Origin: an uncultured Candidatus Saccharibacteria bacterium
GTDB lineage: Bacteria > Patescibacteriota > Minisyncoccia > Phycocordibacterales > UBA10002
Length of the DNA: 43,866 nt
Assembly: GCA_964366535.1 (NCBI GenBank)
Contig: CAYIUC010000005.1
Coordinates: 1-43,866 of the forward strand
Direction of reading: 5' to 3'
Every line of letters starts with the position of its first letter. Position 1 is the stretch's first letter. Below the pieces are notes generated by a model that did not search any database, had not been told where the DNA came from, and was given only the letters and a program-made list of their open reading frames with translations. The position numbers were made by a program, and so were the translations under genes. This document shows positions 5,044-38,474 of this stretch, in pieces.

Positions 5044-5982
5044 ATGGAGGATGAAGTAAAAAAAGAAAATGCTCCGAGTGGCGCGCCGCGCGTGCGCACC
5101 TACGAGCGCGATGTAGCGGAGTTTATGGAGCGCGAGGGTGGGACTGCGGCGAAAATTGCGCTTGCGGAGCAAGAGAAAAGAATTGACCGAGAACAAAAAC
5201 CACCCCTCCTTCCAGAGCGCGATTTTTCTTTTCCTGCTCCCTACCCTTCGGGGAGGGCGGGGGGAGGGGTGGTCTCTATTCCATCTCCTTCCGCCGAACG
5301 CCTTCGCGTGTCTGCGCGAGTGCTTGTGTTATGGAGTATCGCACTGGTCTTCCTAGTGGGAGCAACGGGAATAGGATACTGGTATTGGAGCAACCTGCCG
5401 GAAACGGTGGCTGTTCTACCAACCACGCCAAACTCGAGTACGCAAAAAATACTGATTGCCGACGCGGAAAAGCAATTGAACACGGCACAGCTCACTCGCG
5501 ATTCGTTTATCGCCGCTTTCGCGCGCGAGCGAACATCCGCTTTAGCACTCTCTTCATTTACGCTTGTAGTACCTGTGGCGGCGCGCTCTCTCACAACCGC
5601 CGAATTCCTATCGCTTCTCAATGCTGGAGTAGACGGAACATTCGCGCGCGCGCTCGCGCCAGAGTTTGTACTTGGATTGCGCGGACTTCCGCAAAACCGC
5701 GCATTTCTCATTTTTAAAACCAATTATTATCAAACGGCGCTAGCCGGCATGCTACAGTGGGAAGATACGCTATTTAATGATGCTGGTCCGCTGTTTGGGC
5801 AAGCGATTGGAGGTGTGCAATTTGCCGACAAGACCATTAAAAACCGCGATACGCGCATACTTCTTGATTCTTCCGGAAAAACCTTGCTTATATGGGGGTT
5901 TGCAAACAAAGAAACCATTATTATAACAACAGATGAAGATACATTTACCCAAGTTATTGGAAAATTGGTGCAAACGGAGTAA
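5044..5982 (+). CDS. hypothetical single-pass membrane protein
   Basis: 312 aa with one hydrophobic helix (VLVLWSIALVFLVGATGIGYWYW). TATAAT at 5032-5037 lies 6 nt upstream of the ATG. The ORF contains a palindromic-element segment. Confidence 0.6.
   Translation: MEDEVKKENAPSGAPRVRTYERDVAEFMEREGGTAAKIALAEQEKRIDREQKPPLLPERDFSFPAPYPSGRAGGGVVSIPSPSAERLRVSARVLVLWSIALVFLVGATGIGYWYWSNLPETVAVLPTTPNSSTQKILIADAEKQLNTAQLTRDSFIAAFARERTSALALSSFTLVVPVAARSLTTAEFLSLLNAGVDGTFARALAPEFVLGLRGLPQNRAFLIFKTNYYQTALAGMLQWEDTLFNDAGPLFGQAIGGVQFADKTIKNRDTRILLDSSGKTLLIWGFANKETIIITTDEDTFTQVIGKLVQTE
5236..5273. repeat. G/C-rich palindromic element copy inside a CDS
   Basis: GCTCCCTACCCTTCGGGGAGGGCGGGGGGAGGGGTGGT is 34/38 identical to 22154-22191. 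Both are read in the same frame (..GRAGGGVV..). Confidence 0.85.
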
Positions 5983-9539: not shown

Positions 9540-9544
9540 ACAAC

Positions 9545-10207
9545 ATGAATGAATGGATTCCTAAACGCGAAGTTTTACCTGCATCCACGCAAAAGGCATT
9601 GGAATATGCCCGCAAAGAACACTGGCTGGAAAAAAGCACTTGGTACCTAGCTGGTGGCACAGCGCTCGCGCTACAGGTCGGACATCGGCAATCGGTTGAC
9701 CTGGACTTCTTTACACAAGAAAAAACCTTTGCCCCCGCGGAAGTAACGCGGCATTTCCCCGATACGGTGTGGAAAAGTACAATAGTTAAAGAAGGCACCG
9801 TGTACGGTACGCTATGCAAAGCAAAAGTAAGTTTTATCGCATATCCGTTCTTTATCCCCGCCGTTCCTTTTTTAAGATATGGCGCTGTCGCCGTGCTTGA
9901 TAAAGACGACATTGCCGTTATGAAAATAATTGCGCTCAGTCAGCGCGGACGCAAACGCGATTTCGTTGATTTGTATTGGTACGCGAAACATAACGCCCCA
10001 CTAGAATCGGTGCTTACCAAATTACCTAGGCAATACCCGACCGTTGCGCATAACTTCCAGCATATTATCAAGAGTTTAACCTATTTCAACGACGCAGACG
10101 CCGACCAAATGCCTGCATTGCTTTTTGACGCGACATGGGAGGACATTAAAGAGTATTTCCGCGCGGAAGTGCCGGCGATTGCGAGAAAACTTATCGGGCT
10201 AGATTAG
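9545..10207 (+). CDS. nucleotidyltransferase of the AbiEii/AbiGii toxin family
   Basis: Contains the motif WYLAGGTALALQVGHRQSVDLDFF. I chose the start MNEWIPK at 9545 to avoid overlap with the upstream gene. The track ORF starts at 9431. Confidence 0.7.
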   Translation: MNEWIPKREVLPASTQKALEYARKEHWLEKSTWYLAGGTALALQVGHRQSVDLDFFTQEKTFAPAEVTRHFPDTVWKSTIVKEGTVYGTLCKAKVSFIAYPFFIPAVPFLRYGAVAVLDKDDIAVMKIIALSQRGRKRDFVDLYWYAKHNAPLESVLTKLPRQYPTVAHNFQHIIKSLTYFNDADADQMPALLFDATWEDIKEYFRAEVPAIARKLIGLD

Positions 10208-10226
10208 CGGAGTTATACACAGGCGC

Positions 10227-10256
10227 TTATAGCACGCCCCCCCCCAGTGGTATACT
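10227..10256 (+). promoter_or_regulatory. candidate promoter with a C9 homopolymer in the -35/-10 spacer
   Basis: TTATAG at 10227-10232 and an 18-nt spacer containing nine C (10237-10245). The -10 is TGgTATACT with TATACT at 10251-10256. Confidence 0.45.
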
Positions 10257-10270
10257 GGAAAAATACATAA

Positions 10271-10339
10271 ACCACCCCCTCTGTATCTCCCCCTTAATCA
10301 AGGGGGAGAAGCCCGAGCAGAGCGAGGGAGAGGGGGTGA
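10271..10339. repeat. nested G/C-rich palindromic element in the leader of the secreted-protein gene
   Basis: The outer arms CACCCCCTCT and AGAGGGGGTG pair perfectly. The inner hairpin is TCTCCCCCTTaatcAAGGGGGAGA. Confidence 0.85.
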
Positions 10340-10377
10340 TGTATTTTAGCAAGTTATTATTACGCAATAGCATAAGT

Positions 10378-12408: not shown

Positions 12409-12425
12409 TAAATCTTTTCTTAAAT

Positions 12426-12569
12426 CTCCCCCTCGGTTGAGGGGGAGTACTCCGACTTTAGTCGGAGGGAGGGGGTGGGTCAGCAAAACACCACCCCTCC
12501 GCTTCGCAGACTCAGCACCTCCCCTTAGGTAAAGGGCAGGTTAAAAGAGAGGCAGGGTGAGGGGGTGTT
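12426..12569. repeat. two adjacent G/C-rich palindromic elements
   Basis: 12426-12480 contains hairpins CTCCCCCTCggttGAGGGGGAG and CTCCGACtttaGTCGGAG. 12488-12569 has outer arms ACACCACCCCTC and GAGGGGGTGT. Both end in GAGGGGGTG. Confidence 0.8.
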
Positions 12570-12622
12570 TTACAAAATCCGACCAAAAGTGTCGGATTTT
12601 TGTTTGTGCTATGCTTTCGCGT

Positions 12623-14548: not shown

Positions 14549-14554
14549 CGCTTT

Positions 14555-14626
14555 GCGGAAGGCAAAATTTCGTCCTCTTTACCCTCTCTACGGGGGTCCT
14601 ACGAGATACGAAATTTCGCCTTCCGC
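14555..14626. repeat. 72-nt hairpin element, copy 1 (19-bp stem, conserved 34-nt loop)
   Basis: GCGGAAGGCAAAATTTCGT, then a 34-nt loop, then ACGAAATTTCGCCTTCCGC. The loop is identical to that of 30291-30362. The element lies between the uvrD stop and the rsmA start. Confidence 0.85.
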
Positions 14627-14654
14627 TTCGCGCTCAACGAGTTTTGTTATTATT

Positions 14655-15488
14655 ATGTTTGCAAAAAAATCACTGGGTCAACATTTTCTACGAAGCCGCG
14701 CCGCATTAGAAAAAATCGCGGCGGCCCCAGCGCTTACGCCGACTGATGTTGTGTTGGAGGTTGGACCAGGGGAGGGAGCGCTTACCGTTCTTCTCTTAGA
14801 ACGAGCAGGGAAAGTCGTTGCTGTAGAAAAAGATGCGCGGCTTATACCGATTTTGCAAGAAAAGTTTGCGCGCGAGATTGCTGCAGGAAAATTGGGACTC
14901 GTGCACGCTGATATTCTCGAAATCAAGACGCCCCAGATGTTTAGAAAAACCGCGCCAGATGTTGATGGGCTTCAAACATCTGGTGCGGTTTTTCCGGCCG
15001 CCGCATACAAAATCGTCGCCAATCTTCCGTACTACATCACTGGGCAATTCTTGCGTAAGTTTCTGCAAACCGAAACACAACCGAGTATGATGGTTTTACT
15101 GCTGCAAAGAGAAGTGGCGAAACGCATCACAGCGACCGACAAAAAAGAATCTATTCTTTCGCTTAGCGTTAAGTGCTACGGGGCTCCGCGCTACATAACA
15201 ACAGTTAAAGCCGGCTCCTTCTCGCCGCCGCCGAAGGTGGATTCGGCGATACTAGCGATTGAAGATATTTCTAAAGATTTCTTCACGGGTGGAGGGGTTG
15301 TCTTCTCCGAAGAAACATTTTTTACTATTATTAAAAAGGGCTTCGCGCATCCGCGTAAACTACTTTCTAACAACCTCGACATCAGTGCATCTGTGCTGGA
15401 ACAATGCGGCATACACGCGCGGGCGCGTGCCGAAAATGTTTCTTTGGAACAATGGAAGTGTATCGCAAGTGCATCACGAAGTGCCTAG
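14655..15488 (+). CDS. rsmA: 16S rRNA (adenine1518/1519-N6)-dimethyltransferase
   Basis: MFAKKSLGQHFL start and the SAM motif VLEVGPGEGALT. The longer track ORF from 14553 merely reads through the hairpin element. Confidence 0.85.
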   Translation: MFAKKSLGQHFLRSRAALEKIAAAPALTPTDVVLEVGPGEGALTVLLLERAGKVVAVEKDARLIPILQEKFAREIAAGKLGLVHADILEIKTPQMFRKTAPDVDGLQTSGAVFPAAAYKIVANLPYYITGQFLRKFLQTETQPSMMVLLLQREVAKRITATDKKESILSLSVKCYGAPRYITTVKAGSFSPPPKVDSAILAIEDISKDFFTGGGVVFSEETFFTIIKKGFAHPRKLLSNNLDISASVLEQCGIHARARAENVSLEQWKCIASASRSA

Positions 15489-16415
15489 CATGGGCACGGT
15501 CTGTGCTTGTGATGGTAGAGGGAAACATCCGAATACTGCATACATTAAACACGGGGCTCCTTGCGGTATGTAGCTTCCAAGCATAAATAGGGTAAACGGC
15601 GCATTGAAATTAAGAAACGCTTGCGAACCGGTGTAATGCGTCATTAGTGCAAGTGGTGGTACCGAAAGAGGTACCATACCAACTAGCCAGTTGCCGCTAC
15701 AGGTGCAAGGAAAAACATACACGACCATCCCTCCAAACCCGGGTATCTGCGCATCTGCGCGCGGCATAAGTGCGTCCGTAAGTTTCTGAAACAAAGATGT
15801 AACTCTATGCCGCCACGGCGACTCCCAAGAGATAGTACGCACATTTTTTCGCGACTCGCTTACAAATTGCGTAAGAAAGTCGGTTGTTGTAGCTAGGGCA
15901 AGCGAGCGCATGTCGCCCGCAAGTTTTTCCAATTCTTCCGCAGAGCGGCCTTGTTCTCCTCCAACTCGCTTAACTATTTCCAGAAATTGCTCCAGATTGC
16001 GCGAGTTTGGATTTTCTTTTTTTGTCTCTTCTCCTGCCCTTAACTTAAGGGGAGGTGCCCCGACGCTTTGGTCGGGGCGGAGGGGTGTTTTCTTTTCGTA
16101 TAAAAAAACATTCAGAGCCGCTAGGGTTTTTGGCCCAACCACTCCTAGTTCGCCCTTAATCGCATGCTCGCGTTGAAACACCGCGACCGACCTTGCCGTG
16201 GCAGCGCCAAAATAATTTGTTTCCTTGCTAGGCGAGCCAGCACCGGTATTAGCAACGCGCGTTTCCGCTCGTTCGTTCAAAAGTCTCTGGAGAGCGAACA
16301 CATCGGGGCCGCGCGAACCAAATTGGAGATCGCGCGCAAAGCGCCATTCTCCTGCATACGCGGGCTGAAACGCCACGACACACAAAATAGCGGATATAAA
16401 TACGCGAGACATCAT
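15474..16415 (-). CDS. secreted protein with a PG_binding_1-like peptidoglycan-binding domain
   Basis: Signal peptide MMSRVFISAILCVVAFQPAYA and the motif GSRGPDVFALQRLLN...YFGAATARSVAVFQ. It contains an in-frame palindromic element. Its 3' end overlaps rsmA by 15 nt in convergent orientation. Confidence 0.65.
   Translation of the reverse strand: MMSRVFISAILCVVAFQPAYAGEWRFARDLQFGSRGPDVFALQRLLNERAETRVANTGAGSPSKETNYFGAATARSVAVFQREHAIKGELGVVGPKTLAALNVFLYEKKTPLRPDQSVGAPPLKLRAGEETKKENPNSRNLEQFLEIVKRVGGEQGRSAEELEKLAGDMRSLALATTTDFLTQFVSESRKNVRTISWESPWRHRVTSLFQKLTDALMPRADAQIPGFGGMVVYVFPCTCSGNWLVGMVPLSVPPLALMTHYTGSQAFLNFNAPFTLFMLGSYIPQGAPCLMYAVFGCFPLPSQAQTVPMLGTS
16031..16089. repeat. G/C-rich palindromic element inside a minus-strand CDS
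   Basis: CCCTTAAcTTAAGGG and GCCCCGACgctttgGTCGGGGC hairpins followed by GGAGGGGTGTT. On the minus strand it is translated as ..RPDQSVGAPPLKLRAGEE.. Confidence 0.8.
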
Positions 16416-16440
16416 ATATTCAAGTATACTATACTCATAA

Positions 16441-17430
16441 ATGATGCGGACACGCCCAATTACAATATCCGCCGTTATATTTCTCGCCGCACTCGTCGGC
16501 TTCTTTGCCTATTCTGAATACATAAATCAAGGTGAAGAGGTTGCGGCGCGAGAAGAAGCGCCCGCGAGCGTTCTCGGTTCTGCGGCGCTTATCGCCGACA
16601 GCGACCGCGACGGATTAAAGGATTGGGAGGAAGAACTTTGGCGCACTGCTCCCGACAAACCAGATACAGATGCCGACGGCACGAATGATGCGGAGGAAAT
16701 AAAAAACGGAAGGAATCCGCTTATTGCAGGCCCTGAAGATAAGCTAGATGCCGCAACCGCCGCGACTAAGGTGAACCCAGACGCAAAAACGACTACAACC
16801 GACACCGAGCGCCTTGCGAGAGAAATCTTTGGCACCTACCTTTCCACCAGGCAAGAAGGTCTGCCCCTTTCGCAAAATGAAATTGCAAACATAATAGACA
16901 CGGTATCTGCAAGCGTACCAGAAGAAAGCCCTAAAATATTTACCGCTACGGATGTGAAAACATTTGCCGATGAAAATAGCGCGGCGTTACGCGCGTACGG
17001 AAATGCACTCGGCTCAGTGCTCAAAAAGCCATGGCCCGCGCGCGAAAACGAAATTGCCGTCTTTGAACGCGCAATACAAGACGAAAACCCCGAGACGGCG
17101 CGGCTAGACCTTGCCAACCTCACGCCCATTTCGCTCGCATACGGCAATATGGGGAAAGACATCGCACGCATACAAGCCCCCGCGGGCGCGCTAGCTTCGC
17201 ACCTGCGCGCCGCAAACGCCACAATGGAGATAGGCGAGAGCGTGCGCGGTATGAGCTCTGCTCTAGATGATCCCATCAAGGCAGTATCAAGTGTCGCTCG
17301 CTACTTCGGCGCAGGCCCTCGACTAGGAGACGCGCTTGCGGAATTGCGAGCATACCTAGAAAACCGAGGTATTTCGTACACAGAAGACGAAGATGGTTAC
17401 GCGCTGTGGAATGCGACCGCTAACCAGTAA
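16441..17430 (+). CDS. membrane-anchored protein with thrombospondin type-3-like calcium-binding repeats
   Basis: N-terminal TM helix ITISAVIFLAALVGFFAY. Repeats are DSDRDGLKDWEE and DTDADGTNDAEE. TATACT at 16430-16435 lies 5 nt upstream of the ATG. Confidence 0.6.
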   Translation: MMRTRPITISAVIFLAALVGFFAYSEYINQGEEVAAREEAPASVLGSAALIADSDRDGLKDWEEELWRTAPDKPDTDADGTNDAEEIKNGRNPLIAGPEDKLDAATAATKVNPDAKTTTTDTERLAREIFGTYLSTRQEGLPLSQNEIANIIDTVSASVPEESPKIFTATDVKTFADENSAALRAYGNALGSVLKKPWPARENEIAVFERAIQDENPETARLDLANLTPISLAYGNMGKDIARIQAPAGALASHLRAANATMEIGESVRGMSSALDDPIKAVSSVARYFGAGPRLGDALAELRAYLENRGISYTEDEDGYALWNATANQ

Positions 17431-17446
17431 ATTAACCGCCCAGAGA

Positions 17447-17526
17447 CAACCCCTCCTGCCTCCCCCAAGGGGAGGTTCTGACCCTCCCTTCCCTTTGGGG
17501 AGGGAGTAGGAGGGAGGGGTGGTGTG
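17447..17526. repeat. nested G/C-rich palindromic element
   Basis: Hairpins CCTCCCCcaaGGGGAGG and CCCTCCCttccctttGGGGAGGG lie within CCCCTCCT...AGGAGGGAGGGG arms. The element ends in GGGGTGGTG. Confidence 0.8.
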
Positions 17527-17614
17527 TTTGATTGGGTTTTCCACTTCCGCACACAAAACAAACCCTCTATAATAAGGGCACGGAAGACGCCTCGCTAAAC
17601 GCGACAGGCGAATT

Positions 17615-19705
17615 ATGCGTTGCAAACACATTACAACTCTGCTCATCGTCTCTCTTTTCGTAACTGGCTCGCTATTTACGCCGACGAAGCGCGCCCATGC
17701 GCTTGTGAGCTGTATTCCAGCCATCGCCCCTATTCCAGATATACCACTAGCCGTACCTGTACAAAACTTCGGAGAAATGACGCGGCAAAATATTGCCAAT
17801 ACTTTCAGTGCCTCCAATTTCACCAAAGAGTGCATTCTGGATGCGATGGTTACATTCCTCAAAGAAGCGCTGATACAAAACATCACCGGCTCCATTGTGG
17901 ATTGGATAAACAACGACTTTGAGGGCGGTCCGGCGTTCGTAACCGACCCCGCAGGGTTTTTCGTAAATATTGCCGACGAGACCGCCGGGCGGTTTATAGA
18001 AAATCAATTAGGTCCCATCGGACAACTGCTTTGCAGTCCGTTTGACTTGCGACTGCGTTTGAATCTTTGGCTTGCAACAAGCGCCTCGCGCAAGCAGTAC
18101 ATCGGCTGTCGCCTTACCGATGTGCAGATGAATGTGCACGATGCGTTTACACAAGGTTCGTTTATCGCTTCCGGCGGTTGGAAAACATTTAACGCAATAA
18201 CTTCCGACCCTCGCAACAACCAATACGGCGCGTTCCTCTACGCCTCGGACGCTCTTAACAATGAATTCGTCAAAAGGGCGAATGAAACACTTCGCGATCT
18301 CTCGTACGGTAGGGGATTTCTGTCGTTTAAAAAATGTTCTGAGTGGGTAGATGCATCAAGTGAGGGAACGGGCGAGGGGAGCGGAAAAAGATGCGCAAAA
18401 TACAAAGTGGAAACCCCTGGCTCTCTTATCAACAACCAACTAAATAATGCGTTCGGCTCGGAATTGCGCAAATTTGAGTTGGCGGACGAAATAAACGAGG
18501 TGTTTCAAGCGCTTGTAAACTATGGGCTTCGGCAAGTGTTTACAGCGACAGGCGGCGGACTCCGTGGCGCGAGCAAGGCGGCGGCGGGACAAGAAAGCGC
18601 GGCGTCGCGCCTGCGAAGGTCAGAGGGTACGATAATGAACGAGGTATATGCAAACACGCAAACCGACACAACCGGTGGATTTATAACTACAAAATATGAT
18701 TTGGCTTCTAAGGACGACAATACGCTCACAAAAGTTGTGGCGGAAACAAAATCAGGAAGCGCGGGCGGCAGTAATGGAGAGCGGTTGTCGCCAGACCGAA
18801 ATCTTGCGCTTAATAGGCCGGCATCACAATCGGGATATTATGCCTTACCGCGCTATGATGCCGACAAAGCAGTCAATGGAGGCAAGGACGCGGTCAAGGG
18901 CGATTGTTATGGCTTCAACTGCGCCGCAGTAACCTCCAAATCATCCCCGATATACTGGGAAGTTGCGCTAGGGAAAACATATTCCATAAAAGAAGTGTGG
19001 ATACACAAGGCAAACGACCTTTCTTATGATGCAGCGTTGGGGACATTTAAACTTTCTATCTTAAAGCCGGACCGCGGTATCGCGTACACGAAAGAAGTTG
19101 CGGCCAATTCTGCCACTGCGATTCCACTCGTGATGCCGAACATCAATACCGCTGGCGCGATTGTGCGCATTGAGCGCGCGAATGGAGACGAACTTGCGCT
19201 TGCAGAAGTAGAAGTGTACGGCACGGAATGGGAGACGGCGACTGCAAACACGCCGCCGCCAACTGGCGTTACCGCTCCTCCACCTAGTGCAACTCCAGTG
19301 GTTTCGGTACAACGAAATGTGGAACTGAAAATTGACGGTCCGGTATTTACCATCAATGAACCGATCGTAAATGCGCATATAGGCATCTCAATGGACCAAC
19401 AAGTGGGTACGACATACAAGCCGTTTGCGCCACAGCAAGCGTTTTCAAAAATCCTCGTGCGGGTAAAAAATCAGGAAACGGGTGTGGAGAAGTTTACTGA
19501 GGAGTTTACCAATACGGAAATAAAAACATACCGCACCACCCAAACCTTTAGTGCCACGGCGGGAGAAAAAATAACCGTCGGATACGAGTTTACTCCACAA
19601 AGCGGCGCAAAGGGAAACTACGCGCTTAACACCGAAATAATCGGCTCGGATGGAAATCAGGTTCCCGGTGCCGTAAGCACAATGAGAATTCAAGCACCAA
19701 ATTAA
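17615..19705 (+). CDS. secreted protein with a C-terminal F5/8 type C (discoidin)-like domain; first gene of the T4SS-like operon
   Basis: Signal peptide MRCKHITTLLIVSLFVTGSLFTPTKRAHA. Discoidin-like block: NLALNRPASQSGYY...AVNG...YWEVALGKTYSIKEVWIH...LALAEVEVYG. Confidence 0.6.
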   Translation: MRCKHITTLLIVSLFVTGSLFTPTKRAHALVSCIPAIAPIPDIPLAVPVQNFGEMTRQNIANTFSASNFTKECILDAMVTFLKEALIQNITGSIVDWINNDFEGGPAFVTDPAGFFVNIADETAGRFIENQLGPIGQLLCSPFDLRLRLNLWLATSASRKQYIGCRLTDVQMNVHDAFTQGSFIASGGWKTFNAITSDPRNNQYGAFLYASDALNNEFVKRANETLRDLSYGRGFLSFKKCSEWVDASSEGTGEGSGKRCAKYKVETPGSLINNQLNNAFGSELRKFELADEINEVFQALVNYGLRQVFTATGGGLRGASKAAAGQESAASRLRRSEGTIMNEVYANTQTDTTGGFITTKYDLASKDDNTLTKVVAETKSGSAGGSNGERLSPDRNLALNRPASQSGYYALPRYDADKAVNGGKDAVKGDCYGFNCAAVTSKSSPIYWEVALGKTYSIKEVWIHKANDLSYDAALGTFKLSILKPDRGIAYTKEVAANSATAIPLVMPNINTAGAIVRIERANGDELALAEVEVYGTEWETATANTPPPTGVTAPPPSATPVVSVQRNVELKIDGPVFTINEPIVNAHIGISMDQQVGTTYKPFAPQQAFSKILVRVKNQETGVEKFTEEFTNTEIKTYRTTQTFSATAGEKITVGYEFTPQSGAKGNYALNTEIIGSDGNQVPGAVSTMRIQAPN

Positions 19706-19708
19706 CCA

Positions 19709-21652
19709 ATGAAAAAACTTATTATCATCGTTTTGTTGCTCGGCATCGCACTCGCTCCGGTGGGCGGGGGGGTGGCTTTTGCAGTGGAAACCGGCGGAAA
19801 TGCCCCGCAAACAAACGGCGAGGTGAATGGCGGGTGCGGGATGTTTTCTATAGGCGACTGCATCACCTTCTTTATTGCCCAAATGGGCAATATGGTAATG
19901 ACGCTTGTCTCTAGCGTGCTCAGTATAGCGGGCGCGGCGCTGAACTTCTCGGTGGACCTTACCGTCAATATGAGCGCGTTTCTTGCAAAGGTAAAAATTG
20001 TGGATGTGGGGTGGAAGATAATGCGCGATATTGCAAACCTTTTCTTCATCTTCATACTCCTCTGGGTCGGAATACGCACTATTTTGCAAATGGGAAGCGA
20101 CAACGAGGTGCGTAAGACGCTTCTATGGGTAGTAGTAATGGCACTTCTTATAAACTTCTCGCTCTTTATCACCAAAGCGGTGGTGGATATGGGAAACATT
20201 GCAACACTCCACTTCTACGACGCTATGCGCCCCGACCTATATGAGAACGGGCAACCAGTAAAGGATGCGCAAGGAAAACAAGTAAAGGCGGGTCTTTCCG
20301 ACATATATATGGAAGGGCTAAAAATGCAGACCTTTATGGGGAGCGGTAGCTCTGTGAACAACTTAGTCGCAACTGCAGGCGGCTTCACCAACCAATTTAT
20401 CAAAATTGGGTTGGTAACAATTCTCGGCTCCGTCTTCTTCCTTGTGGCGGCGTTTGTTTTCTTCGCCGCCGCATTTCTCTTTATCGGTCGCGCGGTTGTG
20501 CTTATGTTCCTTATGTTACTCTCGCCACTCGCATTTGCGGCGCAGGTGATACCAAGCATGCAGGGACAAGCTAAGCGTTTTTGGGATACACTTCTCAAAC
20601 AAACCTTCTTCGCTCCGCTCTATATGGCGCTCACTTATGTCGTGGCCAAGGCAATACAAAGTAACGGATTTTCGGACCTTACCAACATTACCGGCAACCA
20701 AGCATCGTTTGCCGCGCTCCTTACTGGCGAACCGTCTGACAATATCGGCATTGTTGTCAACTACATCTTCCTCATCGGCGCGATGGTGTACACGCTCGTT
20801 ATCGCAAGCCAGGGTGGCGCGTATGGAAGCAAGATGGTCATCGGCTGGGGCAAATCGCTCCAAGGGTGGGGGCAGGGGCTCGTTACAGGTGCCGCGGGAG
20901 GGGTTGCCGCGCGCGCTTTGGGCGGTCTTTCCAAGGCGGCGACGGGCGGCTTGTCGGGAACCACGAGTGCCTTTGGGCGCGCGGCGCTCCGCACTGCCGA
21001 CCGTTTGCAAAATATGAAAATCGGCGGCAAGTCATACAAGGAGATGCAAGAGAAGGGGACTTTCTTTGGAGTGGGGGAGGAGGAGATAGAACGAAACATG
21101 AAGCAGTTTAAGAGCCGACCGCAAGAACAAGCGGCGTACCTCTCGCGACTTTCCGAAGGCCAACGGCGTAAGGCATATGAGAAGTTGTCGGCACGAGATA
21201 GGGTTGCAATTGAGCGTACTGGCGTATTGCAACAAGCGCAGATAAACGATATGTATGGACGCCTCAATCCAGAGGAGCGTGACAAGGTTGACGAGGCGCG
21301 ACGCAAGGTACGACAAGAAGAGGGTAATGAACAACGAATGGCTACCGTGGAAACAATCACTGCGGTTCCAGTTGGTACGCCGCTTACTGCCGACCAAATA
21401 ACAGCGGTTACTCAACTCCGCCCAAATCAAGCGCGCGATCTTTCACACGAAGCGCGTACAAACCCTGAAATTATTCGCCGTTTGCGTCCACAACACCTAC
21501 GCGATTTGATGGAAAATGGAAACCTACTTCCGGATGAAATACAGGCAATAATGAATGAGATAGGAGTAGTGGGTGCACCGATAACATATCCAGCGCAGAA
21601 TGCCCAACGCACTTATGTTCAAAATCCGGCAAATGCGGTCTTATGGACGTAA
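19709..21652 (+). CDS. polytopic membrane protein, VirB6/TrbL-like
   Basis: 647 aa with a signal peptide, at least six hydrophobic helices and a charged cytoplasmic tail. The start is 3 nt after the upstream stop. Confidence 0.5.
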   Translation: MKKLIIIVLLLGIALAPVGGGVAFAVETGGNAPQTNGEVNGGCGMFSIGDCITFFIAQMGNMVMTLVSSVLSIAGAALNFSVDLTVNMSAFLAKVKIVDVGWKIMRDIANLFFIFILLWVGIRTILQMGSDNEVRKTLLWVVVMALLINFSLFITKAVVDMGNIATLHFYDAMRPDLYENGQPVKDAQGKQVKAGLSDIYMEGLKMQTFMGSGSSVNNLVATAGGFTNQFIKIGLVTILGSVFFLVAAFVFFAAAFLFIGRAVVLMFLMLLSPLAFAAQVIPSMQGQAKRFWDTLLKQTFFAPLYMALTYVVAKAIQSNGFSDLTNITGNQASFAALLTGEPSDNIGIVVNYIFLIGAMVYTLVIASQGGAYGSKMVIGWGKSLQGWGQGLVTGAAGGVAARALGGLSKAATGGLSGTTSAFGRAALRTADRLQNMKIGGKSYKEMQEKGTFFGVGEEEIERNMKQFKSRPQEQAAYLSRLSEGQRRKAYEKLSARDRVAIERTGVLQQAQINDMYGRLNPEERDKVDEARRKVRQEEGNEQRMATVETITAVPVGTPLTADQITAVTQLRPNQARDLSHEARTNPEIIRRLRPQHLRDLMENGNLLPDEIQAIMNEIGVVGAPITYPAQNAQRTYVQNPANAVLWT

Positions 21653-21658
21653 CCTCAT

Positions 21659-22702
21659 ATGAAATTTACACATACACAAGCCCTAGAATCTCTTAACAAA
21701 CTCCCGCAAGAGACGCGCGAGCGCGTCACTTCGCAAGAAATAACCGACGCGACTATTCGTATCGCGGAAAGAAATGTAGTTCCAAAAGAAAAGATCCTTG
21801 CTTTTAGTTCTGCAGTAGGAACTGTACTACTCGGTTTGATTCAAAAAGAAAAACTTGCCGAGCAGTTGGTTGCAGAGTTGCAACTGCCGCCAGAAAAAGC
21901 CGCCGCGATTGCGGGGGAGGTGGAGAAAGAGATTTTTAATAGTTCTCCCTCTGCCCCTTTTTCAAAGGGGAAGTCCCCGAGTCCGTCTAAGGCGGACGAG
22001 GGGGTAGGGGTTGGTCACGCACAAGGCATACCCCTCCGCCCCGCCCCGCCAGTCGGCGAGGCGGGGCACCTCCCCTCTCAAAGAGGGGAGGGGGAACAAA
22101 AACAAATTTCTCCCCCTCGCCCCGTCCCCATCCGCAAGCCACTACCCCCTCTTGCTCCCTCCCTTTTGGGGAGGGCGGGGGGAGGGGTTGTACCCTCTCT
22201 CCAATCCCTCCTCGCCGACATTCGCCGCGGCACGGCATACGACGAGAATCGTATAGCCGATGCCTTCCGAAAAACGCCGATTGAAGTCAAGCAGTCGCTA
22301 GAGAGTGTCGGGTTTCTATCACGAATGGAAGGCGTTGCGAAAAAGTTTGGTTTAAATGTGGAAGAAACTGGGGAGCTCGTGAGCGAGTCGGGGCTCGTAA
22401 TGCTCGGGCTAACACAACCAATGAACTTCGTAGACAATCTCACGAAACGATTGCGACTGCCGCGCGACCGCGCGATGGCGGTAGGGCAAGCGGTAAATAT
22501 GGAGGTACTGCGCCCAGTGCGGGAAATTTTGCGGAAGATGAGTGTGCCGTCGGAGGAGCTGCGATTTGCGCCGCCCGCCACCCCTGCTCCTTCACAAAAT
22601 CCTCCCCCAACCCCCTCCTTTAGTAAAGGAGGGGGCGGAGGGGGCGGATTTTCTCCAGTGCAAAAATACACTACCGACCCCTACCGCGAACCAATAAACT
22701 AA
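21659..22702 (+). CDS. hypothetical protein with two homologous ~60-aa modules separated by a repeat-element-derived Pro/Gly linker
   Basis: IAERNVVPKEK...GTVLLGLIQ...LQLPPEKAAAIAGEV aligns with VAKKFGLNVEE...GLVMLGLTQ...LRLPRDRAMAVGQAV. The linker at 21945-22191 consists of palindromic elements. Confidence 0.6.
   Translation: MKFTHTQALESLNKLPQETRERVTSQEITDATIRIAERNVVPKEKILAFSSAVGTVLLGLIQKEKLAEQLVAELQLPPEKAAAIAGEVEKEIFNSSPSAPFSKGKSPSPSKADEGVGVGHAQGIPLRPAPPVGEAGHLPSQRGEGEQKQISPPRPVPIRKPLPPLAPSLLGRAGGGVVPSLQSLLADIRRGTAYDENRIADAFRKTPIEVKQSLESVGFLSRMEGVAKKFGLNVEETGELVSESGLVMLGLTQPMNFVDNLTKRLRLPRDRAMAVGQAVNMEVLRPVREILRKMSVPSEELRFAPPATPAPSQNPPPTPSFSKGGGGGGGFSPVQKYTTDPYREPIN
21945..22191. repeat. 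three tandem G/C-rich palindromic elements, in frame in a CDS
   Basis: Copies at 21945-22016, 22031-22097 (opposite arm order) and 22108-22191. Each contains CCCC...GGGG hairpins. Confidence 0.8.
22596..22652. repeat. 57-nt nested palindrome (AAAATCC-type element) in frame in a CDS
   Basis: AAAATCCTCCCCCaaCCCCCTCCTTTAgTAAAGGAGGGGGcgGAGGGGGcGGATTTT. It is translated as NPPPTPSFSKGGGGGGGFS. Confidence 0.85.
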
Positions 22703-22703
22703 T

Positions 22704-23105
22704 ATGAAGTATCAGACACCGCAATTTATAGACATAGAAGACAAGCTATTTGGGCCGTTTACGGTCAAACAATTCATCTACCTAGTCGGTGGAGCTGGAC
22801 TTTCGTTTATCGCATATCGTTTTTTGCCGACCGTTATAAATATAATCGTCATCCTGCCGATTGCCGCACTCGCACTCGCACTCGCGTTTTGGAAAATCAA
22901 CGGCAAACCGTTTGTGTTTATCTTAGAATCCGCTATTCGTTATTACTTCTCCGACAAGCTCTACCTCTGGCGCAAGGTGCCTAAAACCATGTTGGCAAAG
23001 AGTGTCGCGCCAAACGCCCCCCCAACAATACCGAAATTAAATGAAGGCAAGTTGCGCGACCTCACTTGGACGCTAGACATTTCGCATACGACAACGCGAA
23101 AGTAA
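22704..23105 (+). CDS. PrgI-family-like (VirB3-like) small two-TM protein
   Basis: FIDIEDKLFGPFTVKQFIYLVGGAGLSF followed by a second helix. The start is 1 nt after the upstream stop. Confidence 0.6.
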   Translation: MKYQTPQFIDIEDKLFGPFTVKQFIYLVGGAGLSFIAYRFLPTVINIIVILPIAALALALAFWKINGKPFVFILESAIRYYFSDKLYLWRKVPKTMLAKSVAPNAPPTIPKLNEGKLRDLTWTLDISHTTTRK

Positions 23106-23123
23106 GCGGGGTATACTATCACC

Positions 23124-23750
23124 ATGCCACCACATACGAAACCAACACAGGAGTTCGTCCCAATCTCTGAAATACGAGACGGGGTGCTCATTTTGCGAGA
23201 CGGCGGGTTGCGCGCTTTGCTTATGGTCTCATCTGTCAACTTCGCGCTCAAATCCGAAGACAACCAAGAAGCGATACTTCTGCAGTTTCAAAACTTCCTT
23301 AATACGCTGGATTTTTCGGTACAAATTGTAGTACATTCGCGCCGTTTTGATGTGCGTCCTTACCTTGCCCTATTAGAAGAACGAGTGAAGGCGCAAGAAA
23401 CGGAACTCTTGAAAATCCAAACGCGCGAGTATATCGGCTTCGTGCGCTCGTTTACCGAAAGCACTGCAATTATGTCCAAAACCTTCTTTATCACCGTGCC
23501 GTATTCGCCTACTCCAGTTAAACTTAAGGGCGGGCTTCCTGTCGGGTTCCGCAAAAACCAATCAAAAAGCGCTACGGCCAGCGACTTCAACGAAACCAGA
23601 ACGCAATTGGAGCAGCGTATCTCTATTGTGGAGCAGGGGCTTACGCGGTGCGGGCTGCGCACCGCGCGGCTTGGAACAGACGAAGAGATAGAGTTGTTTT
23701 ATAAATTGTTTAACCCTGGCGAAGAACAGCATGCGGCAGTTACCGCATAA
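23124..23750 (+). CDS. T4SS-associated protein resembling a VirB4/TraC N-terminal (non-ATPase) domain
   Basis: Contains EFVPISEIRDGVLILRDGGLRALLMVSSVNFALKSEDNQ. TATACT at 23112-23117 lies 6 nt upstream of the ATG. Confidence 0.45.
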   Translation: MPPHTKPTQEFVPISEIRDGVLILRDGGLRALLMVSSVNFALKSEDNQEAILLQFQNFLNTLDFSVQIVVHSRRFDVRPYLALLEERVKAQETELLKIQTREYIGFVRSFTESTAIMSKTFFITVPYSPTPVKLKGGLPVGFRKNQSKSATASDFNETRTQLEQRISIVEQGLTRCGLRTARLGTDEEIELFYKLFNPGEEQHAAVTA

Positions 23751-26889: not shown

Positions 26890-26921
26890 TATACGAATAT
26901 ACGAATTATACGAATCTACAA

Positions 26922-27971
26922 ATGTCTACGAATAAAACAAAATTGGTTGGAATAATTGCGGGCACAGGCACGCTGATTTTGTTTGTTCTCCCGTTCTTTG
27001 TCTTTGCCGCCGATTATATTCCGCTTGCGTCAATTCCTGGCACCACTGAAGTTGGGAAAACAACCGCATCGCTCTCGTCTTACCTTACCGGTATGTACCG
27101 AGTGGGCATAGGCGCTGCGGGAATACTTGCCGTACTTATGCTCGTCTGGGGCGGATTCCAGTATGCGACTACGGAAGCGGTAATGGGAAAAAGCGAAAGT
27201 AGGGGTATTATTATGAATGTCGTATGGGGTCTCGCGGTAATTCTAGGCTCGTACCTTCTTCTCGTCACCATCAACCCGCGTCTAGTAGACATCGGCCTCA
27301 CGATTGGGAATTTGAATAGGGTGAATCGTACTAGAATACCAACACCGGAAGAAACTTACGGTAAATTTCTTGATAGTATGCTCCAAAGAGTACAGGCGAC
27401 ATCTCAAAAAGCACGGGACATAAAAAAACTTTCTGACGATAAGCGACTAGAGCGTGGTTTACTTCAACAAAAAATTGACGAGGGGAATTATGAGAACGAC
27501 GCGGAACTTGAATCTCTTCAATCACAAATAAACTTACTGGACAAAGAAGTTGGTTTTTTGGATGTACAAGAAGTTAATGTGCGAAATTATGAAAACGCGC
27601 TTGATCAAATTGATTTGAATAGCAAAAACATGTTGGATTGTCTTACCGGATATGGGTCTTGCCAAAGATATGTTAGCAATAGCGCGGTATCAAGATTTAT
27701 TAGAAATAAGATCCTTGGGGGAAGATCAGAAACGCAACTACAAGCAGACGAAGCGGAAGCCGCGAAGTTTTTAGATGGCGCACAAAAAGATGCTAATAAA
27801 CGCATGGCGGAATTGCGCGCGGCGGGTTTAACACAAAGAGCAGATGCGTTGCAGACAAAAATAAATGGTATGACTGATCAATTCACTCGAGGAAAAGATT
27901 TCGGGAGGGCGTGTGATGGGGCCACTAAACCTATGCCAACGAATTGGAGATCGGGAGACGCGTGCCCATAA
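26922..27971 (+). CDS. T4SS pilin-like (TrbC/VirB2-like) N-terminal module fused to an AT-rich coiled-coil C-terminal half
   Basis: A signal peptide is followed by two hydrophobic helices (GIGAAGILAVLMLVWGGFQY; VVWGLAVILGSYLLLVTINP). The C-terminus is rich in heptad-like charged sequence. Confidence 0.55.
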   Translation: MSTNKTKLVGIIAGTGTLILFVLPFFVFAADYIPLASIPGTTEVGKTTASLSSYLTGMYRVGIGAAGILAVLMLVWGGFQYATTEAVMGKSESRGIIMNVVWGLAVILGSYLLLVTINPRLVDIGLTIGNLNRVNRTRIPTPEETYGKFLDSMLQRVQATSQKARDIKKLSDDKRLERGLLQQKIDEGNYENDAELESLQSQINLLDKEVGFLDVQEVNVRNYENALDQIDLNSKNMLDCLTGYGSCQRYVSNSAVSRFIRNKILGGRSETQLQADEAEAAKFLDGAQKDANKRMAELRAAGLTQRADALQTKINGMTDQFTRGKDFGRACDGATKPMPTNWRSGDACP

Positions 27972-29193: not shown

Positions 29194-29935
29194 AGACACC
29201 CGATGTTTGCCGCCTATCAACATCGGGTGTCAGGCGGCGCCGCACTACAACCTCCTGCACAATCGCAAAAAGGTTAGAAGTGGTCCAGTAGAGCGCGACT
29301 GCGCCGGAGATGGTATATGCAGCGATTGCCGCCACAATCGGCATTACATACTTCATTTGCATATGCATACCGTGCATCAACTCCCCTTGAAATGATCCGT
29401 CGCGCGAGCCGGGAGTCGGTGGCGGCATAACTAACTTTACCTGGAAAAATTGCGTGATGCCGGCAAGCGCCGCAAGAAAGATACTTTTCCCAGCAATGTC
29501 TATAAGACCTAAAAATTCCATATTCACTTCTGGGCGTGGGATAAAGGAGTAGCGAAGCGCCTCGTTGATGTCTGGGAGCCCGCCGCGAAAGAACACATAG
29601 TAGAGCGAAATAATAACAGGAAGTTGTATAAGAAGAAGGAAAAACCCCGCGAACGGGTTGATGCGCTTTTCTTTGTAGAACGCCATCGTAGCGCGCGCGT
29701 ACCCCTCGCGGTCGCCATCAAATTTCTTTTTTAGCGCGTCTAGCTCTGGTTGGAACTTACGCATAGCAAATTGCGTTTCAATAGAGCGTTTAGAGAGGGG
29801 AAAGAGTATAAGCTTCACCGCTATTGTGAGGATAATAACCGCGAGACCGGCATCAGCTCCCGGTAGAATGTCCATCAAAAAAACCAACCCATTATAGAGC
29901 GGTTGGTAGAATACTTCCTTAAACAATTCTAGCAT
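29183..29935 (-). CDS. yidC: membrane protein insertase YidC/Oxa1 (short form)
   Basis: 250 aa with GLAVIILTIAVKLILFPLSKRS...MRKFQPELDALKKKF. It lies downstream of rnpA as in the canonical operon. Confidence 0.9.
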   Translation of the reverse strand: MLELFKEVFYQPLYNGLVFLMDILPGADAGLAVIILTIAVKLILFPLSKRSIETQFAMRKFQPELDALKKKFDGDREGYARATMAFYKEKRINPFAGFFLLLIQLPVIISLYYVFFRGGLPDINEALRYSFIPRPEVNMEFLGLIDIAGKSIFLAALAGITQFFQVKLVMPPPTPGSRDGSFQGELMHGMHMQMKYVMPIVAAIAAYTISGAVALYWTTSNLFAIVQEVVVRRRLTPDVDRRQTSGVSKS

Positions 29936-30280: not shown

Positions 30281-30290
30281 GTGTCACTTC

Positions 30291-30362
30291 GCAGAAAGCG
30301 GAATTTTTTCCTCTTTACCCTCTCTACGGGGGTCCTACGAGATAAAAAATTCCGCTTTCTGC
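30291..30362. repeat. 72-nt hairpin element, copy 2 (perfect 19-bp stem, conserved 34-nt loop)
   Basis: GCAGAAAGCGGAATTTTTT, then a 34-nt loop, then AAAAAATTCCGCTTTCTGC. It fills the rpmH-rnpA spacer. Confidence 0.85.
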
Positions 30363-30366
30363 TTCG

Positions 30367-30501
30367 TTACACCGTAAGACGCTTACGACCTTTCTGCCTG
30401 CGGCGAGCGATTACGCGCTTTCCGGAGGTGCGGCTCATACGCGCGAGGAAGCCGTGCGTCCTCGCGCGCTTTTTCTTCTTTGGTTTGTAGGTAAAGCTCA
30501 T
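30367..30501 (-). CDS. rpmH: 50S ribosomal protein L34
   Basis: My own translation gives [44 protein letters not shown]. The ORF is below the track length cutoff. Confidence 0.9.
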
Positions 30502-38070: not shown

Positions 38071-38427
38071 ATGGTTCTCATCTACAACCAAAAACTTAAA
38101 CCCAGAGCCCGTGAATTAAGAAAAAATCAGACACCCGCAGAAGCGTTGTTGTGGGAACAAATCAGAGGTAAAAAAATTAAAAATTGCCAATTTGTTAGGC
38201 AAAGAGCGATCGCTAGTTTTATTGTTGATTTTGTGTGCCTACAGTCAAAGTTGGTGATAGAAATTGACGGACCAATTCATCTGCAACATAGAAACACCGA
38301 TACTTTTCGTCAGGAACAACTAGAGTTGCTCGGATTTAGAGTTTTGCGTTTTTCTAATAAAGAAGTTGAGGCAGATATTAACTCAGTGATTGGAGTGATT
38401 GCTTGGAATTTAAATCCAACCTCCTAG
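38071..38427 (+). CDS. DUF559 / Vsr-like endonuclease-domain protein (islet gene)
   Basis: Contains RELRKNQTPAEALLWEQIRGKK...QFVRQ...IVDFVC...LVIEIDGPIH...R...L...GFRVLRFSNKEV. Its last codons run into the flanking repeat. Confidence 0.7.
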   Translation: MVLIYNQKLKPRARELRKNQTPAEALLWEQIRGKKIKNCQFVRQRAIASFIVDFVCLQSKLVIEIDGPIHLQHRNTDTFRQEQLELLGFRVLRFSNKEVEADINSVIGVIAWNLNPTS

Positions 38428-38474
38428 CCCCCCTTCCTTTATAAAGGAAGGGGGGGTGGGGGGATGGATTTTTC

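What the first reader, a model, noticed from the sequence alone, without database searches (positions are those of the whole stretch)
21945..22191. About 250 bp of tandem palindromic repeat elements form an in-frame Pro/Gly linker between two homologous modules of one protein
ORF 21659-22702 has two clearly homologous ~60-aa modules. By eye 17 of 59 positions are identical, including G.V.LGL.Q...L...L.LP...A.A.G..V.

The roughly 82 codons between the modules consist entirely of three G/C-rich palindromic elements (21945-22016, 22031-22097, 22108-22191). They belong to the same family found in intergenic DNA at 10271, 12426, 12488 and 17447.

The reading frame stays open through all three and gives ..SPSAPFSKGKSPSPSKADEGVGVG...PPVGEAGHLPSQRGEGE...LAPSLLGRAGGGVV.. 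This is the pattern established for Rickettsia palindromic elements, which are selfish DNA tolerated inside coding sequences. I am not aware of it being characterised for this kind of genome.
Basis: partly seen in the sequence, partly recalled or inferred. Interest (0 to 1): 0.8.

Follow-up and report, generated by a model that had tools for sequence, protein, structure and literature searches.

The report
Palindromic repeat DNA translated inside genes
In this small-genome candidate-phyla-radiation (CPR) bacterium, about a quarter of a secretion-cluster gene is G/C-rich hairpin repeat DNA that also lies between genes, read in frame as floppy Pro/Gly-rich protein as in Rickettsia.

Summary
ORF 21659-22702 is one gene. 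It has two homologous helical modules joined by a linker that is predicted to be disordered.

A profile built only from copies in other genomes finds it (E 4e-11), together with copies at 12418-12549, 10285-10346 and inside another gene (16024-16117).

The left part of element 3 (22112-22150) is native coding sequence for the conserved motif PPRPVPIRK. Only 22150-22191 is a repeat unit. A fourth element lies in the C-terminal tail (22596-22652).

The palindromy exceeds what the peptide requires (synonymous resampling z about -6). Conservation is flat across codon positions.

Complete orthologues keep one open frame, but they fill the linker and tail with different repeat families. The same families occur in frame in unrelated proteins. 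A second hairpin family is inserted in frame in UvrD and KsgA.

The Rickettsia-palindromic-element-like reading is supported. It is a new member of a known kind, in Parcubacteria (CPR bacteria), and I found no prior description. The mobility mechanism is unknown, and whether the elements are selfish or functional is unresolved.

The parts
21659..22702 (+). Host gene (347 aa) of unknown function. It lies in a type IV secretion-like cluster, between a large membrane protein (19709-21652) and PrgI (22704-23105).
   Evidence: ORF listing. PrgI and TraC/VirB4-like neighbours by Pfam. Nine complete single-ORF orthologues, with the same gene order in the longer contigs.
21659..21937 (+). N-terminal helical module (aa 1-93).
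   Evidence: AlphaFold2 pLDDT about 88, six helices. Homologous to the C module.
21943..22100 (+). It is translated as SPSAPFSKGKSPSPSKADEGVGVGHAQGIPLRPAPPVGEAGHLPSQRGEGEQK.
   Evidence: nhmmer with a profile from foreign copies only: E 3.7e-11, model positions 4-143. The covariance-model hit (113.5 bits) is expected, because this copy was in the model's seed. DNA fold z -6.2. Collinear with the L006 and L007 orthologue linkers and with intergenic copies in L001.
22112..22150 (+). Native conserved linker motif PPRPVPIRKPLPP.
   Evidence: V156, K160 and P163 are invariant. The DNA of 22108-22137 matches orthologues that lack the repeat unit at this site.
22150..22191 (+). Short repeat unit: a hairpin (CCCTCCC/GGGAGGG) followed by a G-tract tail, translated as LAPSLLGRAGGGVV.
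   Evidence: 95% identical over 38 nt to the L004 linker. 92% to a copy at a different linker position in L003. 92% to 5235-5270 in another gene. Synonymous sites between the same genomes are only 44-49% identical.
22205..22543 (+). C-terminal helical module (aa ~183-295).
   Evidence: pLDDT about 85 for aa 207-295. Most of the invariant columns lie here.
22596..22652 (+). Fourth element: a long hairpin in the C-terminal tail, translated as QNPPPTPSFSKGGGGGGGF.
   Evidence: DNA fold z -5.6. 97.5% identical over 40 nt to a copy in the linker of L012. Also present in the L004 tail and the L008 linker, and similar to the intergenic copy at 38412-38471.
12418..12570 (+). Intergenic copy of the composite, upstream of the UvrD-like gene.
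   Evidence: nhmmer with the foreign-copy profile: E 2.9e-16. The covariance-model hit (120.7 bits) is expected, because this copy was in the seed. Fold z -5.5.
10279..10346 (+). Intergenic partial copy (first half of the composite).
   Evidence: nhmmer E 4.4e-10. Fold z -7.7.
16024..16117 (-). In-frame partial copy (second half of the composite). It lies in the linker after the PG_binding_1 domain of gene 15474-16415 and is translated as TPLRPDQSVGAPPLKLRAGEE.
   Evidence: nhmmer E 2e-12. Covariance model E 1e-8. Pfam and translation.
17444..17532 (.). Intergenic copy of a related sub-family.
   Evidence: 91% identical over 77 nt to the L003 orthologue linker, in the opposite orientation.
5235..5270 (+). 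In-frame copy of the short hairpin plus G-tail unit in gene 5044-5982, translated as PYPSGRAGGGVV in the same frame.
   Evidence: 92% identical over 36 nt. It lies in a hypervariable segment that other orthologues fill with other repeat families.
38412..38471 (.). Intergenic long hairpin of the same type as the tail element, lying between convergent genes. A shorter relative lies at 37728-37751.
   Evidence: (z -6.5).

Best explanation
**What it is.** The linker and the C-terminal tail of this protein carry non-autonomous, G/C-rich nested-palindromic repeat elements. The same families populate intergenic DNA in this Parcubacteria (Taylorbacteria-like) lineage.

**How it works.**
- Copies that land in, or spread by recombination or conversion into, structurally tolerant segments survive when they keep the frame and carry no stop codon. 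Such segments are disordered linkers, tails and surface loops.
- The surviving copies are then translated. The C-rich arm reads as Pro/Ser/Leu, the A/T-rich loop as Phe/Lys/Ser, and the G-rich arm as Gly/Glu/Arg/Ala. The result is a floppy Pro/Gly-rich spacer.
- The sequence continues to evolve as a DNA element. Hairpins are maintained, there is no codon periodicity, and it changes much more slowly than synonymous sites. It does not evolve as a protein.

**Shown:** repeat family membership, the in-frame position, DNA-level rather than protein-level constraint, turnover between orthologues, and recurrence in unrelated genes.

**Inferred:** that the elements move or are copied, by an unknown mechanism with no transposase in view, and that the peptide is made and tolerated.
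For: - **Profile search.** A profile built from foreign copies only hits 21943-22099 (E 3.7e-11). It also hits 12424-12545, 16027-16110 and 10285-10346.
- **Covariance model R1.** Outside its four seed copies it finds two more full-length intergenic copies in L001 and a full-length copy in the L007 orthologue linker. Including the seeds, L001 holds three full-length copies, all intergenic, and the L006 and L007 linkers hold one each.
- **Hairpins are kept.** Pairing is 89.5% against 49-67% when partners are slid. Seven pairs carry changes on both sides, against 3.2 in shuffles. In L007 all five stems differ in sequence but still pair.
- **More structure than the peptide needs.** MFE z -5.7 against synonymous resampling and -6.0 against same-codon permutation, with 0 of 100 controls reaching it. 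The two modules give z about -1 to -2.
- **Codon skew.** CCC and GGG are over-used, p about 4e-4 and 5e-4.
- **No codon periodicity.** Identity to other copies is flat over codon positions.70/.51/.69. In the C module nucleotide identity is .76 but third positions are only .48.
- **Slower than synonymous change.** The short unit is 95% identical between genomes whose synonymous sites are 44-49% identical. The same unit also occurs at a different site in L003.
- **Turnover between orthologues.** Linkers and tails carry different families, including an AT-rich TACGAAT repeat with at least 14 copies in the 21 kb of L001.
- **Recurrence in an unrelated protein family.** The same element families, in the same frame, fill the variable segment of the 5044-5982 family.
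- **Clean present/absent cases.** A second hairpin family is inserted in UvrD and KsgA relative to the L001 orthologues and to solved structures.
- **Tolerant sites.** The linker and tail have pLDDT below 50.
Against: - No target-site duplication or consistent terminal repeats were found. No transposase occurs among the Pfam-scanned ORFs of the window. Mobility is therefore only inferred.
- Copies at orthologous positions, including intergenic ones, are far better conserved than synonymous sites, and they keep their hairpins. Selection for a function would explain this as well as selfish spread does.
- Only 43.9 kb of this genome and about 100 kb of related loci were available, so the comparison of coding with intergenic density rests on few copies.
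- No expression or peptide data exist.
- The composite 21943-22100 may have been inherited vertically with L006 and L007 rather than inserted recently.
Confidence: 0.72

Rival explanations
1. The structured elements are functional nucleic-acid modules kept by selection. They might, for example, stabilise mRNA, pause transcription or translation between domains, or provide recombination or protein-binding sites in DNA. On this view the in-gene copies are there because of that function and are not merely tolerated.
For: - Hairpins are preserved with compensatory changes.
- Elements are much better conserved than synonymous sites.
- Elements occupy equivalent positions in distant genomes. Both the window (12418-12549) and L001 (712-848) carry a composite upstream of UvrD.
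- The PG-binding protein linker holds a nested palindrome of completely different sequence, but the same length, in L001.
- The three full-length copies in L001 lie in gaps between genes. Two of them start at the base after a stop codon.
Against: - Orthologue linkers carry unrelated repeat families, including a non-palindromic AT-rich one. This argues against one required structure at this site.
- The elements do not match the intrinsic-terminator pattern, and a canonical-looking terminator follows one of them at 12574-12600.
- No Rfam family matches.
- Structure conservation is also expected if the hairpins are needed for the element's own propagation, as for REP sequences and their RAYT transposases (background knowledge).
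Confidence: 0.2
2. This is an ordinary low-complexity Pro/Gly-rich linker selected at the protein level. The palindromes are a by-product of Pro (CCN) runs followed by Gly (GGN) runs.
For: The peptide is Pro/Gly/Ser-rich and predicted to be disordered. C-runs and G-runs are complementary by nature.
Against: - Folding energy far exceeds synonymous controls (z about -6).
- CCC and GGG usage is abnormal for this genome.
- There is no codon periodicity in conservation.
- The matches to non-coding copies are significant.
- The peptide sequence is not conserved among orthologues.
Confidence: 0.04
3. This is an artefact: two genes fused by misassembly across repeats, or two genes separated by a non-coding spacer.
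For: Repeats do break assemblies here. In Parcubacteria Gr01-1014_17 this gene is split over two contigs, and the copy on L012 carries a frameshift.
Against: - Nine independent assemblies give the same single ORF with both modules.
- A conserved motif, PVPIRK, lies in frame inside the linker.
- Gene order is conserved in the longer contigs.
Confidence: 0.02

Closest known systems
Rickettsia palindromic elements (RPEs; Ogata et al. 2000 and 2002, as summarised in PMC10969869)
   Same: - Repeated palindromic elements about 100-150 bp long.
- Found both between genes and in frame inside unrelated genes, including housekeeping enzymes, of a small-genome bacterium.
- The encoded peptide sits in structurally tolerant positions.
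- No transposase is in view.
   Different: - The lineage is unrelated (Parcubacteria, CPR).
- The arms are G/C-rich C-tracts and G-tracts that give Pro/Gly-rich disordered peptides.
- The architecture is a string of five hairpins, and half-units also occur alone.
- Several families take turns in the same linker.
- Sequence homology to RPE families was not tested.
REP/BIME elements of enterobacteria and pseudomonads
   Same: Short imperfect palindromes are combined into mosaics. They are often placed just after stop codons. Structure is conserved across copies.
   Different: REP/BIME elements are extragenic by definition and are associated with RAYT transposases. Here copies are translated, and no RAYT was seen, although only 44 kb was available.
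Intragenic MITEs and small mobile sequences (ERIC, Correia, BOX, Nezha; Delihas, PMC2229807; review PMC10969869)
   Same: They are non-autonomous repeats that can form in-frame fusions with host ORFs.
   Different: No terminal inverted repeats with target-site duplications, and no parent insertion sequence, could be identified here.
Coding palindromes and mobile GC clusters of organelle genomes (Nematomorpha mitochondrial genes, PMC6649704; yeast var1 GC clusters and Neurospora PstI palindromes, from my own knowledge)
   Same: Hairpin-forming inverted repeats are embedded in frame in protein-coding genes. In yeast and Neurospora the palindromes are G/C-rich within a lower-GC genome.
   Different: Those are organelle genomes. 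The Nematomorpha palindromes are long perfect inverted repeats, not a dispersed multi-copy family.

Membership tests
RPE-like protein-coding palindromic repeats (the kind, not the Rickettsia families) | A dispersed multi-copy family of palindromic elements roughly 100-150 bp long. | tested here: met
   Composite copies of 131-158 nt: two full and two partial in the window, three in L001, and one each in the L006 and L007 linkers. Fold z from -4.6 to -6.2.
RPE-like protein-coding palindromic repeats (the kind, not the Rickettsia families) | Copies lie in frame inside unrelated protein-coding genes as well as in intergenic DNA. | tested here: met
   Genes 21659-22702, 15474-16415 and 5044-5982. 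A second family is inserted in UvrD and KsgA. Intergenic copies lie at 10279, 12418, 17444 and 38412.
RPE-like protein-coding palindromic repeats (the kind, not the Rickettsia families) | Orthologues in related genomes lack the insert (present/absent comparison). | tested here: met
   - Orthologue linkers differ in content and length.
- There are clean gaps of 12 residues (UvrD) and 20 residues (KsgA) against the L001 orthologues, and of 12 residues in each against solved structures.
- For the composite itself, L001, L003, L004, L005 and L008 lack it at that site, while L006 and L007 have it.
RPE-like protein-coding palindromic repeats (the kind, not the Rickettsia families) | The insert lies where the protein structure tolerates it. 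| tested here: met
   By prediction only. pLDDT is below 50 for aa 96-150, 157-179, 181-206 and 297-337, and 85-90 in the modules. The UvrD insert falls in a gap of the PcrA alignment.
Rickettsia RPE families 1-10 | Sequence homology to a Rickettsia RPE consensus. | not testable with these tools
   No RPE sequences were on hand. Homology is unlikely given the composition.
MITE | Terminal inverted repeats flanked by target-site duplications, and relatedness to the ends of an autonomous insertion sequence. | tested here: inconclusive
   Outer complementary arms exist (ACACCACCCCTC / GAGGGGGTGT). By eye I found no consistent direct repeat at the copy ends. No transposase was found in the window.
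REP/BIME | Extragenic location and association with a RAYT (Y1 transposase) gene. | tested here: not met
   Several copies are intragenic. No Y1 transposase is present in the 44-kb window. The rest of the genome was not available.
Intrinsic (Rho-independent) terminator | A G/C-rich hairpin followed directly by a T-run. | tested here: not met
   No element in 9000-23500 is flagged. The terminator count equals the shuffle expectation (21 against 20.2). The tail element has only TTTT after its stem.
Rfam RNA families | A match at the gathering threshold. | tested here: not met
   No match in the whole window. In 21900-22700 there are only chance-level hairpin matches.

The most novel reading that the evidence does not exclude
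Parcubacteria may maintain a toolkit of multi-hairpin DNA/RNA modules under selection for their nucleic-acid structure. The modules would be placed after stop codons and also between protein domains, where the same sequence serves as a disordered peptide linker. If so, domain boundaries in these reduced genomes would be marked by structured elements that have a function in transcription, translation pacing or recombination. These would then be dual-use sequences and not merely tolerated selfish DNA. The hairpin plus four-G-tract tail could form a G-quadruplex. Its occurrence in contigs of 34-72% GC would then point to a widespread motif.
Probability: 0.18. Interest if true: 0.8.

Novelty: new member of a known kind. 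Interest (0 to 1): 0.55.

Why it matters
- **A second lineage for a rare phenomenon.** In-frame palindromic repeats in bacterial genes are best known from Rickettsia. Here the same thing appears in an unrelated lineage that also has a reduced genome (CPR bacteria, Parcubacteria). It involves several repeat families and at least five genes in 44 kb. This suggests that selfish or structural repeats are a regular source of disordered linkers and of protein-length variation in these organisms.
- **Practical consequences.** The repeats break metagenome assemblies and create frameshifts, as seen in Gr01-1014_17. They inflate "hypothetical protein" diversity. They also confound homology searches through peptides such as GRAGGGV, SLEGG..EDV and IRMNTN.
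- **A usable model system.** The elements keep their hairpins and change much more slowly than synonymous sites. That makes them suitable for asking whether such repeats are parasites or functional modules.

Tried and rejected
- **Orientation bias.** All hairpins have the C-arm first. I dropped this as evidence, because such a hairpin reads the same way on both strands.
- **TyrRS palindrome, 36959-36992.** It causes no length change relative to the solved TyrRS 6byq, so it is probably not an insertion.
- **BLAST of elements 1 and 2 separately.** This found nothing outside the ORF. Membership emerged only with a profile of the whole composite.
- **Rfam.** No family matched.
- **Terminator scan.** It did not flag the elements.
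- **Function of the host protein.** Pfam found nothing. A Foldseek search of the model against PDB gave only hits with E above 1.
- **Viral contigs.** No exact match to the core pattern of hairpin 5.
- **Target-site duplications.** The composite is bracketed by TTCTCCC at 21943 and 22108. Other copies show no such repeat, and the second site is native conserved sequence, so I do not count it.
- **Literature.** Five searches, including "Candidate Phyla Radiation", Patescibacteria or Parcubacteria combined with palindromic, MITE or repeat terms, returned nothing on this subject.
- **Genome-collection scan.** It returned only 5 loci, so the phylogenetic breadth of the orthologue comparison is modest.

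Full report
**Setting**

The window is chromosomal DNA of a CPR bacterium close to Candidatus Taylorbacteria (Parcubacteria). It carries rnpA, yidC, dnaA and dnaN at 29.2-33.3 kb, together with housekeeping genes. The closest named relatives of the focal protein come from Taylorbacteria and Parcubacteria metagenome-assembled genomes.

ORF 21659-22702 (347 aa) lies in a type IV secretion-like cluster. A large membrane protein precedes it. PrgI, a TraC-like protein and a VirB4/TraG-type ATPase follow it. The same gene order is found in the related contigs long enough to show neighbours.

**The ORF and its modules**

Nine complete orthologues (323-370 aa, 45-64% identity) are single ORFs. The N module (aa 1-93) and the C module (aa ~196-295) are homologous:
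- BLASTP gives E 5e-7.
- Profile-profile comparison gives probability 97.6%, E 4e-12 over 87 columns.

AlphaFold2 predicts two helical modules with pLDDT of about 85-90. It gives pLDDT below 50 for aa 96-206 (apart from a few residues) and for aa 297-337. No Pfam family and no solved fold matches the protein.

**The palindromes are real and lie in the DNA**

- Strict C-arm/G-arm hairpins number 9 in the window, against 0.07 in dinucleotide shuffles. Three of them lie in this ORF and six lie between genes.
- As single-stranded DNA, 21940-22102 folds into five consecutive hairpins (z -6.2).
- The tail segment 22590-22658 folds into one long hairpin (z -5.6).
- The structure is not a side effect of Pro and Gly codons. 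Back-translating the same linker peptide with the genome's codon usage, or permuting its own synonymous codons, never reaches the observed energy (z -5.7 and -6.0, 0 of 100). The two modules behave normally.
- The linker uses CCC for 10 of 18 prolines and GGG for 9 of 13 glycines. The background frequencies are 0.18 and 0.23.

**What the elements are**

I built a profile HMM from only two foreign copies: the linker of orthologue L006 and an intergenic copy in Taylorbacteria L001. In the window it finds:
- 12424-12545 (E 2.9e-16);
- 16027-16110 on the minus strand (E 2e-12);
- 21943-22099 (E 3.7e-11, covering nearly the whole model);
- 10285-10346 (E 4.4e-10).

*Covariance model.* A model was seeded from four copies: window 21943-22100, window 12420-12550, the L006 linker and L001 18440-18578. 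Besides those seeds it recovers two further intergenic full-length copies in L001 (712-848 and 5679-5811) and a full-length copy in the linker of orthologue L007.

*Hairpins are conserved.*
- 89.5% of cells pair, against 49-67% when partners are slid.
- Seven pairs have changes on both sides, against 3.2 in shuffles.
- The L007 copy has different sequence in all five stems yet keeps all five hairpins.

*Element 3 is only partly a repeat.* 22112-22150 encodes PPRPVPIRKPLPP, which contains invariant residues. The DNA of 22108-22137 is also conserved in orthologues that lack the repeat. The real unit is about 22150-22191: a hairpin followed by a G-tract tail. This unit is:
- 95% identical to the same position in L004;
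- 92% identical to a copy at a different linker position in L003;
- 92% identical to 5235-5270 inside another gene, in the same frame (..GRAGGGVV).

*A fourth element.* The long hairpin at 22596-22652 lies in the tail. Near-identical copies lie in the tail of L004 but in the linkers of L008 and L012. A similar hairpin lies between convergent genes at 38412-38471. Together the repeats make up about 257 of the 1044 nt of the gene.

**The DNA evolves as an element, not as protein**

- Identity between the in-gene composite and other copies is flat across codon positions (for example .70/.51/.69). It is as high against intergenic copies in another genome as against the orthologous in-gene copy.
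- In the C module of the same genes, nucleotide identity is .71-.81 but third positions are only .44-.56.
- The short unit is 95% identical between genomes whose synonymous sites are near saturation.

**Orthologue test**

The orthologues do not share a linker sequence.
- L001 has no G/C-rich palindrome in this gene. Instead it has an AT-rich TACGAAT repeat (peptide NTNIRMNTNLRMSTNKTE) in both linker and tail. That repeat has at least 14 copies in the 21 kb of L001.
- L003 carries the TACGAAT repeat. It also carries a copy 91% identical to the window's intergenic element 17444-17532, in reverse orientation.
- L004 and L012 carry a different multi-hairpin family (ACATCCCC...GGAGGATGT). Its peptide reads NIPPTP..SLEGG..EDV.

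**The phenomenon is not confined to this gene**

- *PG_binding_1 protein (15474-16415).* Half a composite lies in frame in its linker. The L001 orthologue has, at the same place and with the same length, a nested palindrome of unrelated sequence.
- *The 5044-5982 family.* It has a hypervariable segment before its membrane helix. Different genomes fill it with the same families in the same frames.
- *A second hairpin family (CGCGCCAGATGTT...AACATCTGGCGCG).* It is inserted in frame in the UvrD/PcrA-like helicase (12853-12890) and in KsgA (14929-14994).
  - The UvrD insert is 12 residues. It is absent from the L001 orthologue and from PcrA 1pjr.
  - The KsgA insert is 20 residues relative to L001 and 12 relative to 6ifs.

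**Interpretation**

These are Rickettsia-palindromic-element-like repeats that are tolerated in frame where the protein is disordered or loop-like.

What is not shown is how they spread. I found no target-site duplications and no transposase in the window.

Their strong conservation and maintained hairpins leave room for a functional role. I rate that at about 0.2. They do not look like canonical terminators, and they match no Rfam family.

**Breadth and literature**

An exact 21-nt pattern from the G-tail of the short unit occurs in 56 metagenome contigs with GC of 0.34-0.72. In most of them a complementary C-arm lies upstream and the loop is variable. Whether this reflects common descent, transfer or convergence is unexplained.

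Full-text searches found nothing on such elements in CPR bacteria, Patescibacteria or Parcubacteria. The known parallels are:
- RPEs and intragenic MITEs (PMC10969869, PMC2229807);
- organelle coding palindromes (PMC6649704).

**Verdict**

- Observation: partly confirmed, with corrected boundaries.
- Interpretation: supported.
- Novelty: a new member of a known kind.
- Interest: moderate.

Noticed in passing
window 12853-12890 (UvrD-like gene 12557-14548) and 14929-14994 (KsgA gene 14553-15488); further copies at 29195-29231 and 43585-43668: A second palindrome family (CGCGCCAGATGTT..loop..AACATCTGGCGCG) is inserted in frame in two conserved enzymes. The UvrD insert is 12 residues, absent from the L001 orthologue and from PcrA 1pjr. 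The KsgA insert is 20 residues relative to L001 and 12 relative to 6ifs.
   Followed up: partly
L001 10280-10354, 10820-10872 and at least 12 more sites in 21 kb; L003 4479-4534; L005 1049-1103; window 26891-26939: An AT-rich, non-palindromic repeat built on TACGAAT. It is very abundant in the intergenic gaps of the Taylorbacteria contig. It is translated as NTNIRMNTNLRMSTNKTE in the linker and tail of the orthologous gene.
   Followed up: partly
L001 about 4255-4345 (minus strand), in the PG_binding_1 gene 3703-4650: The window carries half a G/C-rich composite in this protein's linker. At the same place L001 has a nested palindrome of unrelated sequence and the same length (an outer stem, CCCGTTAGAAGT/ACTTCTAACGGG, enclosing two inner hairpins). 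RNA-parameter MFE is -48 kcal/mol for 123 nt.
   Followed up: partly
L014-L069 (metagenome contigs): The 21-nt G-tract tail GGGGAGGGCKGGGGGAGGGGT occurs in 56 contigs with GC of 0.34-0.72. Usually a complementary CTCCCTCCCC arm lies upstream and the loop is variable. Some contigs have clusters of such hairpins (L045 6640-6840, L034 8945-9030, L058). The tail has four G-tracts and could form a G-quadruplex. The origin of this breadth is unexplained.
   Followed up: partly
window 14547-14634 and 30281-30372: Two copies of another element of about 90 nt, flanked by inverted repeats (89% identical over 65 nt). One lies right after the UvrD stop codon. The other lies in the rnpA-dnaA intergenic region.
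   Followed up: no
window 617-724 and 2074-2266: Clusters of direct and inverted TAAAGGACA / TGTCCTTTA repeats in intergenic DNA around the CCA-adding enzyme and NYN-domain genes. They may be a protein-binding array.
   Followed up: no
L012 3673-4513 and L013 1-228 (Parcubacteria bacterium Gr01-1014_17): The orthologous gene is split across two overlapping contigs, with the break in the repeat-bearing tail. The copy on L012 has a frameshift just after the linker repeats. This is an assembly error or a pseudogene caused by the repeats.
   Followed up: partly
window 36959-36992 (TyrRS gene 35825-37036): A perfect 15-bp-arm palindrome with the G-rich arm first (CAGGGGGAGGATTTT / AAAATCCTCCCCCTG) lies inside the C-terminal domain of TyrRS. 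There is no length change relative to the solved TyrRS 6byq, so it is probably not an insertion.
   Followed up: partly
window 12574-12600: A canonical-looking intrinsic terminator (AAAATCCGAC..GTCGGATTTT followed by a T-run) lies directly after the intergenic composite element and before the UvrD-like gene.
   Followed up: no
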